Assembly (NCBI GenBank): GCA_951406725.2
Contig: OX597816.1
Coordinates: 83,762,001-83,826,000, forward strand
Origin: Octopus vulgaris
Taxonomy: Eukaryota
DNA: 64,000 nt
Direction of reading: 5' to 3'
Positions 3,441-16,185 of the stretch are shown here, one piece after another. The position numbers and the translations under genes are program-made. Each line of letters starts with the position of its first letter. Position 1 is the stretch's first letter. The notes under the pieces are model-generated. The model was not told the DNA's origin and ran no database searches. It saw only the letters and a list, made by a program, of their open reading frames with translations.

Positions 3441-3495
3441 ACACACACACATACACACACACTGTACAGAGTATGAAATAAAATGTGTCCATTAC

Positions 3496-3568
3496 CTCGT
3501 TTTTGCATAAAAGAAAACAGATCATCTAAAAATTCTTTCCTCTTTGGATCTTCACTTAGCTCGTATAA
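3496..3568 (-). CDS. ARID3: Internal coding exon (73 bp) of an ARID3/dead ringer (retained)-family transcription factor, N-terminal part of the ARID domain
   Basis: Encodes LYELSEDPKRKEFLDDLFSFMQKR(G), nearly identical to the ARID3/Dri motif LYELxxDPKRKEFLDDLFSFMQKRG. On the minus strand it is bounded by a pyrimidine-rich acceptor ...ATATTCTTGCAG (AG at 3570-3569, phase 0) and a donor G|GTAAT (GT at 3495-3494, phase 1). Neighbouring exons were not found in the window. Confidence 0.93.
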
Positions 3569-4325
3569 CTGCAAGAATATATTGAAACAAGTTGACAAAA
3601 TAGAGAACAGAAAAGTACCGGAAAAAAGTGTGTGTGTGTGCTGTTTTTTATAGTTAAAATTGTGAGAAGCAGTAAATAAGGGTTGAGTGATGTGTTTGTA
3701 TAGGTGTCATGCGGGATGCATGTGGTTTGCAAGATAAGAAGGTGTTATGCATACGTTGACCATGGAACACGGCGTTACTGTGTCCGATATCAAGGTAGAA
3801 ATGCGACAATCTGGAATGCCTAGTGTTAGCCATGACATGTGTATCAGTCAGGCAAATAACCTGCCATTGAGGATGTGTGTGTAGAATTCAGGTGAGGTAG
3901 AAATATATGTTTTCATGCACACATAATTTACATACACACACGAGTGTGTGTGTGTCTTTTCATGCATATTTGATTTTGCTGAATGTTCTTGTAAGTGAAA
4001 TTGGTGGTCATGTGATGAATTGGAATACGTGTGGGGTAATTTTTATCTAATGTGATTATGGAATCTGACGTCGAACACATATGAACTATGAATGAATATA
4101 TTGGTTAATTGATGTACTTCAGGTGTTTATATAGCCTGATACTAGGTCAGTAGTTCTCAATTTTCTTTTTGTTCTATGGACCCATTTTTATTCCTATTTT
4201 ATTCGAGGAGACCCATTGCATTTTTATAATTAAATATTATTACGAATTGCAATAAACAAAATATTTTGTGTATTAGAAGTATAACCAATTTATTGCCATA
4301 AATTTTAACGATAAAGTCGTATAAG

Positions 4326-12776: not shown

Positions 12777-12958
12777 CATGTGTAATAGCGAAGAAGCAGA
12801 AATATTCGAGAAGTTGAATCTCGTTTTGAAGGTTGGTAAAAAACGGGCTTCTACTTACTGACTTCAATAGGGACATTTCGTTCGGCATCTGCAGAGGAAA
12901 GGAGAAGTGCTTTGGCTAGTTAAGTTTTTTAAGGCACGGTGGTCAAGTTCATAGTTGA

Positions 12959-13048
<90 letters not shown>

Positions 13049-13633
13049 CATCATCATTAATATTATAATCATCAATATTACTGAAGATCCCCCTATCTTA
13101 GTTATATCTATTCATATAACATTTGTCAAATATAAACAAATGCACAAGAACTATACATGTGTATACACATCTACAGAAAAACTCAATCGTACACACACGC
13201 ACGCATGCACACACACTTATATGTATATATATGTATATATAAACATACATAGGTATATATACATGCATTCATACATACATACATGCATACTCACATACAT
13301 ACAAACATACATTCATACATACATACATACATACATACATACATACATACATACATACATACATACATACATACAAACATACATATAATTATATTATTAT
13401 AATTATTAGGGAATATTACTTCCGAGTACACAGGAAAAAGACATTCAAATTAGATGTACTAAAATGAACATCTCTCAATGTTTAATTCGTATATATAAAA
13501 GTAATTTTAGAGATAGAAGCACCTTCAACTCAATCAACACTGAAATATTTTATACCCGACCACTCCATAAAATGTTAAAAATTAAATCTTATACTAACTA
13601 TATCTATTCTGAATCCTGTATTTTCCATTTATA

Positions 13634-13733
13634 AGATTACACGTGTTTCATAAAAGTACGTCGGTATTGATTAGATACGAGCTATCTATTTTCAATACTT
13701 ACTCGGGTCGACATACTCCCAATCTTCAGGTCT
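13634..13733 (-). ncRNA. Second hammerhead motif (inverted copy), helix I mismatched
   Basis: The minus strand reads AGAC CTGAAGA TTGGGAGTATGTC...GACGTACTTTTAT GAAAC ACGT GTA ATCT. The core is intact, but the first helix I pair is C.A instead of C-G. Confidence 0.6.
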
Positions 13734-13816
13734 GGATTGCTCAACATTTTTCGCTACCCCTAACTCTTATTTAGTTCCCTGATACTCCATATCTTCCTCT
13801 ATATGTTGAGGAAACC

Positions 13817-13916
13817 AGACCTGAAGATTGGGAGTATGTCGACCCGAGTAAGTATTGAAAATAGATAGCTCGTATCTAATCAATACAGACGTACTTTCAT
13901 GAAACACGTGTAGTCT
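13817..13916 (+). ncRNA. Type I hammerhead ribozyme motif (minimal palindromic helix III, extended helix II)
   Basis: Helix I AGAC (13817-20)/GTCT (13913-16). Core CTGAAGA (13821-27). Helix II TGGGAGTATGTC (13829-40)/GACGTACTTTCA (13888-99), extended by GTATTGA/TCAATAC and TAGATA/TATCTA. GAAA at 13901-04, helix III AC-ACGT-GT, and cleavage triplet GUA ending at 13912. Confidence 0.75.
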
Positions 13917-14044
13917 TATAAACGGAAAATACAGGATTGTGAATAGATAGAGTTAGTATAAGTTTTAATTTTTAACATTTTATGGAGTGGTCGGGTATAA
14001 AATCTTTCAATGTTGATTGAGTTCAAGGTGGTTCTGTCTCTAAA

Positions 14045-14104
<60 letters not shown>

Positions 14105-14107
<3 letters not shown>

Positions 14108-14290
14108 CAGTCGAATAAGCGAACATTAAAATCAACAATAACAAAACAACTAGTAGTGAACGTGGAATGTATTAGACGCTCGGTATAAATGATAAAAAAG
14201 AAAGTCGTTTTGACTTTCCGAGCACAGCTCTTCGTCAGAAAGGAAAACGGAAAAGTTCAGAGAAGAAAAATCATGATCAACAGCACGTGT
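14105..14290 (-). mobile_element. Penelope-like pseudo-LTR remnant with a degenerate hammerhead core
   Basis: The minus strand reads CTGACGA A GAGC TGT GCTC G GAAA GTC AAAAC GAC TT (14238-14201), followed by CCGAGCGTCTAATACA, similar to the repeat at 1-100. Confidence 0.45.
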
Positions 14291-16185
14291 GTCGTTACAT
14301 ACATATGCACATGTATATATGTGTGTGTATATTACATAAACACACACGCACATACATGTATATATAAATATATATATATATACTTATATATACACATACA
14401 TACAAACATACGAAAGAAAGGATCACTCAGCGCATTTGGTTAGAGTAAATGTATTTAAAACAGTTTGTGTCAATGTGCATGTGTATAGGTGTATGTTTAT
14501 GTATGTGTACGTGGATAAACCTACCTATATAGAATCATACGTATAGACATATAAAGTAAGTATACATGTATATATACTAGGTATATGAAAGTACATATAA
14601 CGTTATGTAGGATCGAAAGTTTCCCTAGAATATCAGAAGTGAAAGAAGAACGCCCTATATAGACAACAGAGCTGAATGTCATCATTAATATAATCTACAG
14701 GTACATTTGGGCCTACATTGGAATTTGAAATCCATAGTTGTAAACAATTATATAATGCGTACGTTTCTTATGGATCTCTCGTCAGTCCCAAGTAAGAAAG
14801 TGATATCCCTTGATGAATTATATCCCTTTGAATCACATGATTTTCTAGTTAACATCGCCATCTTATTTTGGACTGATGAGACTTCCTCGAAAAATGTAGG
14901 CATTAAATAACTGTCAACAATTATGGATTTCTAAACTAAGGTAACGCTAATTGTGCTGGTAGGCTATATTAATAATAATATATCGTGGTATATATATGAG
15001 TAAAAAAAACATCACGATTATACCTAATCCGGCCTCATATGTGAAGATACGATCATGCACACGCACTCACTCATGCACATGTTATATATGAAGACTTTAT
15101 GTATGCATATACGTATGTCAGTATGTGTATATCTAAGCATATATGCATGCAGGCATATATAAGTTTTTTGCATGTGTAGTCTGTTGCTACAAATCATTGA
15201 TTAATATTTACATCGAATCCAGTAGTATTTTATACAAAATTTACAACTAAGGAGCAAATCGTTTTTGGTCCCAAATCTACTCAGTTTTGGTCCACTACCA
15301 ATATTTTATCTGTCTCTAGCCTTCATAAGATGGCTTGCAGTTATTCGTCTTTATTCAGGCTCTATACACATGAAGTGAAATTCTAATAAAGCAGTTCAGA
15401 TTATTCAGTTATGCTAACTAATATATATTACACTCTATTACGTTTTCCTATTTAAAAAAAAAATCGTGTCAGATAACCAGTTGTAACAAAATATTGAAGT
15501 AACAAAATATTGATTTAGTTAATTGGAAATGACCAAAAGATGTTGAAACACACACACACATGCACGCACAGACGCACACACACACACACACGCTCACACA
15601 CACATACAAATACACATTGGGGTACACAACAGACACACATTTAAGCAGACGTTTGTAAAATTACACGCACAAACATTATATATATATAAATTATATATCT
15701 ATGAACCAATATATATAAAAATACATATATACATACGAATATATACGTATACACACATACATATATATCTAGACTAATATACATATATATCTAAACTAAT
15801 ATACATACATATAAATATACATATACACATAGATATTTATACACCTTCATATACATATGTACACATACCTAATTGATATAAATACCCACAAACATATACA
15901 CAAACATACATATTAGTACACTTTCGCGTACTCACACTCACTCACGCACACATACATACATTATACGAACATACATACACACACAGACATTATTGTGTGT
16001 AGAACTAGAGAGATATTTGCATGTAGCTATCGATGTAGATATATAAATCTCCATATTCTTATTTAAGGCTTTTAAGGTAATTTTAAGGAGTAACAACAGT
16101 ACATTTCTCAATGGAGGGAAACAATGCTAAAAATAGAATAAAATTTATCATAAATTTAGCTTCGATTTAAATCCAGTCAAAGTTT

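What the first reader, a model, noticed from the sequence alone, without database searches (positions are those of the whole stretch)
13502..14048. 547-bp foldback carrying two back-to-back hammerheads
Seen: 246-bp arms with 15 substitutions, no indels and a perfect inner stretch of ~70 bp, separated by a 55-bp pyrimidine-rich spacer. No ORF is present, and (TA)n follows on the right. Known: Penelope-like insertions often carry an inverted pseudo-LTR copy. Inference: this is a non-autonomous ribozyme-bearing element. Transcription from either strand gives an RNA that can fold either as a ~250-bp duplex (an ADAR or Dicer substrate; coleoid cephalopods edit RNA heavily) or as the ribozyme, and the two folds are mutually exclusive.
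Basis: partly seen in the sequence, partly recalled or inferred. Interest (0 to 1): 0.72.

Follow-up and report, generated by a model that had tools for sequence, protein, structure and literature searches.

The report
Inverted Penelope-like stub with long-armed hammerheads
The hairpin is two back-to-back end pieces of an old, decayed jumping gene inside an octopus gene's intron; each piece carries a predicted self-cutting RNA motif with an unusually long, conserved arm, and the hairpin would likely keep both motifs folded shut.

Summary
The inverted repeat is real as described (246-bp arms, 15 substitutions). It is not a separate non-autonomous element. It is a 5'-truncated insertion of a Hydra-clade Penelope-like element: a terminal repeat with a 93-bp tail (13397-13796) joined 5'-to-5' to an inverted, tailless copy, between microsatellites, in an intron of ARID3/dead ringer. 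Such inversions are known and common here (20 of 50 sampled insertions). Nine of 18 tailed/tailless pairs are non-nested, which favours priming from both target strands. Each arm holds a type I hammerhead core with the U·U junction usual in published Hydra elements. New here is a 68-78-nt domain II (at most 26 nt in the published Hydra table) whose basal helix covaries across six subfamilies. Rfam misses it; cleavage is untested, and 1 of 54 copies starts at the predicted cut. The left ribozyme has lost pair 1.1. In read-through RNA from either strand the antisense arm comes first and predicted helix II pairing is about 0, so a two-state switch is not supported. No editing or small-RNA data were available. 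The scan noted similar inverted-repeat palindromes in other families of this genome.

The parts
13397..13489 (-). Element 3' tail, on the left copy only; abuts an (ATAC)n/TA-rich target
   Evidence: Shared with many family copies up to a fixed end
13490..13796 (-). Left pseudo-LTR copy, 5'-truncated at 13796; includes 49 bp of the 'spacer'
   Evidence: 89-93% identical to other copies over query 1-295; junction
13634..13733 (-). Left hammerhead; pair 1.1 broken by G>A at 13637; same strand as the host pre-mRNA
13664..13735 (.). 72-bp stretch identical in both arms, with two shared changes seen in no other family copy
13797..13802 (+). 6-bp junction filler that repeats a motif lying just upstream in the family sequence
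13803..14048 (+). Right, inverted pseudo-LTR copy without tail; ends at a recurrent secondary 3' end
13817..13916 (+). Right hammerhead, core intact: helix I 13817-13820 with 13913-13916; CUGAAGA 13821-13827; domain II 13828-13900; GAAA 13901-13904; palindromic helix III 13904-13911; predicted cut after 13912
14047..14104 (.). (TA)n target microsatellite
3494..3577 (-). ARID3/dead ringer exon; the foldback lies in the roughly 112-kb intron 5' of it

Best explanation
The foldback is two 5'-truncated, inverted copies of the terminal repeat of a decayed Hydra-clade Penelope-like retrotransposon, likely made in one insertion when both nicked strands of an AT-rich target primed reverse transcription and the two unfinished cDNAs were joined. 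One priming site was likely the end of the tail and the other the internal start about 105 nt upstream, which would explain why one arm has the tail and the other not (inferred, about 0.65). Each repeat carries a type I hammerhead motif with a U·U junction, a palindromic 2-bp helix III (predicted to need a dimer or the element's protein) and a 73-nt three-tier domain II kept by compensatory change across six subfamilies. At this locus the motifs are likely inert: the copy on the host gene's strand has lost pair 1.1, and in read-through RNA both are predicted to be locked in a ~245-bp duplex, which would be an incidental dsRNA in the ARID3 pre-mRNA.
For: Family of at least 418 candidates. Fixed 3' ends and scattered 5' ends. 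Longer copies run into RT then GIY-YIG on the same strand (4 of 4 chosen long family-A loci with a hammerhead). Hydra motifs RLKW, DKT, CxCx5C, no second Cys inside the GIY-YIG core (against the definition). Inverted partner in 20 of 50 insertions. Of 27 joined inversions 18 are tailed+tailless, 0 tailed+tailed, 9 of the 18 non-nested. PMC11167929 shows a PLE protein nicking and extending both strands, with two RT starts that bound the tail. Core: majorities of subfamilies A-C differ at 50 of 131 columns, in the core only at N7 and H17. Helix II positions 3-13 paired in 58 of 66 cells across six subfamilies against 47.2 shuffled, 0 of 50,000 shuffles as high. Predicted helix II pairing about 0 in read-through RNA, 0.49 and 0.93 in the arms alone.
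Against: No Rfam hit. RNAalifold gave no consensus structure and covariation on 64 individual copies was not above shuffles. Subfamily B has two mismatches in helix II and its majority does not fold it; the C and F representatives also fold otherwise. Subfamilies D-F were found through core patterns, so their core conservation is circular, and the six majorities are related, so the shuffle p is not a strict probability. Only 1 of 54 copies begins at the predicted cut. This locus itself is nested, so self-primed foldback is not excluded for it. No tree with named Hydra proteins was built. No independent read spans the element.
Confidence: 0.8

Rival explanations
1. Same element, but the right arm arose by self-primed foldback: the first cDNA stopped, folded back and copied itself to the (TA)n end.
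For: At this locus the tailless arm lies wholly inside the tailed copy, as in 9 of 18 pairs; 6-bp templated filler at the junction; both arms share two private changes.
Against: 9 of 18 pairs are non-nested and some barely overlap, which self-copying cannot give; tailless 3' ends recur at the same sites in solo copies.
Confidence: 0.25
2. The hammerhead-like motif is no longer catalytic in this lineage; the long domain II is kept as a protein-binding or RT-start structure.
For: No pile-up of 5' ends at the cut site; no G10.1-C11.1 pair; in PMC11167929 cleavage was not needed for insertion.
Against: All catalytic positions stay fixed while N7 and H17 vary across subfamilies A-C; H17 was G in 0 of 161 classified copies.
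Confidence: 0.2
3. A non-autonomous ribozyme element (retrozyme or MITE-like) that moves as a foldback and switches between duplex and ribozyme.
For: Hundreds of short copies; two hammerheads; no ORF in the locus.
Against: No second copy with the same arm ends among 27 inversions; copies extend into the PLE ORF; duplex dominates by over 250 kcal/mol.
Confidence: 0.04
4. Assembly artefact (false inverted duplication).
For: No contig from four public runs spans the stretch.
Against: Arms differ at 15 sites, each with its own departures from the family majority; the same layout recurs at many loci with similar arm divergence, about 8%.
Confidence: 0.02

Closest known systems
Hydra-clade Penelope-like elements (PMC8557442; section 11, File S1/S2 and passages read)
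   Same: C-terminal GIY-YIG, RWK-type, DKT and CxCx5C motifs, (TA)n targets, 3' hammerhead; 14 of 26 Hydra rows in File S2 have the same U·U junction; Hydra-1_cRog has a nearly identical core; Penelope-13_HM has an inverted 5'-truncated copy.
   Different: Domain II is 68-78 nt against 26 nt at most in those rows (54 nt in the non-Hydra PLE-X1_sMoe row); tail about 93-105 nt against the 30-40 bp described; the listed octopus family Hydra-1_Obim has a different hammerhead.
Minimal PLE hammerheads (PMC4209133; parts 1-2 of 4 read)
   Same: Type I, short helix I, long helix II, palindromic helix III, predicted dimer activity; pairs on opposite strands 100-700 bp apart already reported in Schistosoma.
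   Different: No G10.1-C11.1 pair; helix II 11-13 bp topped by two more helices, against 7-8 bp.
Poseidon PAc mechanism (PMC11167929; passages and second half of the main text read)
   Same: Two RT start sites bounding the tail, both strands nicked and extended, no reads ending at the ribozyme cut.
   Different: Other clade; PAc priming is non-homologous, whereas ends here fall in TA-rich motifs like the target; that paper, in the parts read, does not tie the two starts to inverted insertions.
Animal non-LTR retrozymes (10.64898/2026.07.22.740005; abstract only)
   Same: Short hammerhead-bearing PLE-derived repeats.
   Different: Those are tandem non-autonomous units; this is a truncated, inverted piece of a coding element.

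Membership tests
Hydra-clade PLE | Single ORF with RT followed by C-terminal GIY-YIG, 5' of the pLTR | tested here: met
   (broken frames in longer copies)
Hydra-clade PLE | RWK motif and DKG changed to DKT | tested here: met
   RLKW in L085/L090, DKT in L087/L090; definition
Hydra-clade PLE | CxCx5C linker; CCHH absent; CxxC and CxH around conserved E and N | tested here: met
Hydra-clade PLE | (TA)n insertion preference; tail at one end; inverted 5'-truncated copy | tested here: met
Hydra-clade PLE | RT phylogeny within Hydra | not tested
   No named Hydra proteins were available as tool sequences; only motif comparison by eye with the supplement
Neptune or Naiad PLE | CCHH motif and Cx2-5CxxC linker (both); N-terminal EN (Naiad) | tested here: not met
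   One Cys only inside the GIY-YIG core, CxCx5C linker, EN is C-terminal
Type I hammerhead ribozyme | CUGANGA, GAAA, NUH in standard order with helices I and III | tested here: met
   64 exact full-core genomic matches, control 0; left arm lacks pair 1.1
Type I hammerhead ribozyme | Helix II supported by covariation | tested here: met
   Across six subfamily majorities; not on single copies
Type I hammerhead ribozyme | G10.1-C11.1 closing pair | tested here: not met
   U·U in 153 of 161 classified copies, one U fixed by the search motif; usual in Hydra elements
Type I hammerhead ribozyme | Rfam hammerhead model match | tested here: not met
Type I hammerhead ribozyme | Self-cleavage at NUH | not testable with these tools
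   Genomic proxy negative: 1 of 54 copies starts at the cut
Retrozyme or MITE/foldback DNA transposon | Unit mobilised whole, as tandem monomers or with TIRs and a TSD | tested here: not met
   Arm ends differ among 27 inversions; arms are pieces of a coding PLE; no TSD resolved in the microsatellites

The most novel reading that the evidence does not exclude
An octopus lineage of Hydra-clade PLEs carries an active hammerhead variant with a 70-80-nt three-tier domain II that standard searches miss, and primes reverse transcription from both target strands at its two start sites, so that about 40% of insertions are born inverted: a recurrent source of long intronic dsRNA in which the ribozyme is silenced, so that the host pre-mRNA is not cut.
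Probability: 0.35. Interest if true: 0.55.

Novelty: new variant of a known kind. Interest (0 to 1): 0.32.

Why it matters
The locus itself is a dead insertion of a known layout. Two by-products are useful. First, six subfamilies give a natural covariation series for a hammerhead with a very long domain II, a ready test of whether U·U-junction Hydra hammerheads cleave and what the extra domain does. Second, the tailed/tailless, often non-nested arm pairs give genomic support for two-strand priming as the source of inverted PLE insertions, a question PMC8557442 names as open. Any role in cephalopod RNA editing remains untested.

Tried and rejected
Rfam at gathering score and at E up to 10: no hammerhead; the MIR5380 hit at 67 of 150 bits only reflects the hairpin. 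A strict descriptor that needs a paired 10.1-11.1 missed the motif. An alternative core using the inner GAAA was rejected: that GAAA is absent in subfamily C. Neptune was my first label (recalled) and was rejected. RNAalifold and pair counts on single copies were negative. 5' ends at the cut site: 1 of 54. Pfam found GIY-YIG in 1 of 15 proteins scanned and no RT family. Sequencing runs: no RNA holder listed; four runs held as contigs gave only short family pieces, none spanning the stretch, so editing, small RNA and assembly checks stay open. A degenerate pattern for the upstream ARID3 exon found nothing; tblastn on 200 kb then found it. A link to the ORF was seen in 2 of 31 B loci (one place), 1 of 25 C, 2 of 21 D and 0 of 20 E/F loci, most held with 1.5-kb flanks. 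Paper searches showed no description of this long-domain-II variant or of twin priming in PLEs; the library lacks most subscription papers and Repbase was not searchable.

Full report
Observation. The inverted repeat is as reported: arms 13502-13747 and 13803-14048, 15 substitutions, no indels, a 72-bp perfect run and a 55-bp spacer, followed by (TA)n. Rfam found no hammerhead and a strict descriptor missed it, so the ribozyme claim had to be tested by comparison.

A dispersed family. The left arm plus most of the spacer has at least 418 candidate matches in the genome; the 40 scored are 89-93% identical apart from the locus itself. Copies share fixed ends on the left, one about 105 bp beyond the arm and one at a TA run at the arm's edge, and end at scattered points on the right. 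So the sense strand is the minus strand of the left arm and the plus strand of the right arm. The insertion starts at about 13397, runs to 13796, has a 6-bp filler, then the inverted copy. Copies differ from the family majority by a median 5%: an old, decayed family.

Parent element. Longer copies continue into broken frames for an RT followed by a GIY-YIG nuclease on the same strand (Pfam GIY-YIG in 1 of 6 pieces). The RT piece has full-length relatives at 41-48% identity, one from Argonauta. The motifs RLKW, DKT, CxCx5C, a single Cys inside the GIY-YIG core and flanking CxxC/CxH match the Hydra clade as defined in PMC8557442 section 11, not Neptune or Naiad. No tree was built. That paper describes inverted 5'-truncated copies and one-sided tails as usual for PLEs, and PMC4209133 reports hammerhead pairs on opposite strands 100-700 bp apart. 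The layout is therefore known.

How the foldback arose. Of 54 exact matches to a motif just 3' of the cut site, 24 copies, or 20 of 50 insertions with this locus included, have an inverted family piece at their 5' side. Among 27 directly joined inversions in all loci fetched, 18 pair a tailed with a tailless arm, none pairs two tailed arms, and 9 of the 18 are non-nested; those loci are not a random sample. A non-nested pair cannot come from one cDNA copying itself. PMC11167929 shows a PLE protein nicking and extending both target strands from two RT start sites that bound the tail. I infer priming from both strands with joining of the two cDNAs. This locus is nested, so self-primed foldback remains possible for it.

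The hammerhead. On the sense strand the order is helix I (4 bp), CUGAAGA, a 73-nt domain II opened by U·U, GAAA, a 2-bp helix III within an 8-nt palindrome, GUA, helix I. The hammerhead fold of the right arm is 1.9 kcal/mol above the minimum, which already holds domain II; the palindrome self-pairs at -10.3 kcal/mol. Subfamilies B and C were found by DNA similarity; their majorities and A's differ at 50 of 131 columns, but in the core only at N7 and H17. D, E and F were found through core patterns. Across all six (53-84% identical) domain II is 68-78 nt and helix II positions 3-13 pair in 58 of 66 cells against 47.2 in shuffles, 62 of 66 if one bulge is allowed in F (161 of 163 motifs classified, F only 5). 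Against: single copies show no covariation above shuffles and RNAalifold finds no consensus, B folds helix II poorly, and 1 of 54 copies starts at the predicted cut. File S2 of PMC8557442 shows the U·U junction in 14 of 26 Hydra rows, so that is a clade trait; domain II there is at most 26 nt (my count). The long domain II is the new feature; nine paper searches showed no description of it.

This locus. An exon at 3494-3577 matches ARID3/dead ringer proteins, one from Octopus vulgaris at 100%. Downstream exons lie to the left and the preceding conserved exon lies about 112 kb to the right, ending at a GT donor, so the element is intronic and the host pre-mRNA reads its minus strand. One database gene model instead starts at 12888, left of the element; it lacks the conserved N-terminal exon. 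The minus strand carries the left hammerhead, which has lost pair 1.1. On either strand the antisense arm is made first; predicted helix II pairing is about 0 in read-through RNA against 0.49 and 0.93 for single arms, and the duplex is -366 to -370 kcal/mol. The locus is thus best read as an inert ribozyme pair in a stable hairpin. Editing or dicing is plausible from general knowledge of ADAR and Dicer but was not testable: no RNA holder was listed and contigs did not span the stretch.

Inner perfect run. Both arms share two changes from the family majority inside the 72-bp run; the motif carrying them occurs at two other places, neither with family sequence around it. The run alone has p=0.07. 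Across 15 A-family inverted pairs shared rare changes are 17 in 2487 sites against 0.0009 per site between loci; in B 1 in 1460. A common template or later conversion between arms could both explain this; undecided.

Verdict. A real feature of a known layout, in a likely new family of a known clade, with a hammerhead variant not found in print. Papers seen: PMC8557442 (passages, section 11, supplement parts 1-2 of 59 and passages; figures not visible), PMC4209133 (parts 1-2 of 4; supplements not read and may show long-helix variants), PMC11167929 (passages, second half of main text), 10.64898/2026.07.22.740005 (abstract only). Hammerhead numbering and the L1 term 'twin priming' are recalled.

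Noticed in passing
window 14105-14300, minus strand: A second, unrelated repeat starts right after the (TA)n; it holds a compact hammerhead-like motif (CUGACGA at 14238, short helix II, GAAA) and looks like another PLE terminal repeat in the same microsatellite.
   Followed up: partly
window 14868-14900, plus strand: CUGAUGA followed closely by GAAA, a possible degenerate minimal hammerhead.
   Followed up: no
L092 1232-1646 (G000:C9 near 16.217 Mb): Foldback with a spacer of a few bases whose arms differ at 2 of 127 sites and share 4 rare changes; the best candidate for inter-arm conversion.
   Followed up: partly
window 3494-3577; L247 1169-2030: ARID3/dead ringer gene spans over 330 kb; database model P0038 lacks the conserved N-terminal exon found about 112 kb upstream.
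   Followed up: yes
L026 1865-3250 (L031 8474-9424), plus strand: A second, different PLE-like frame begins just beyond the (TA)n of this family's copy.
   Followed up: no
helix II position 4 in subfamilies A-F: A G-U wobble is the majority pair in all six subfamilies while neighbouring pairs change; possible tertiary or protein contact.
   Followed up: no
L045/L084 and L063/L064: Direct tandem pLTR copies about 1.1-1.4 kb apart, the arrangement that would allow a dimeric hammerhead.
   Followed up: no
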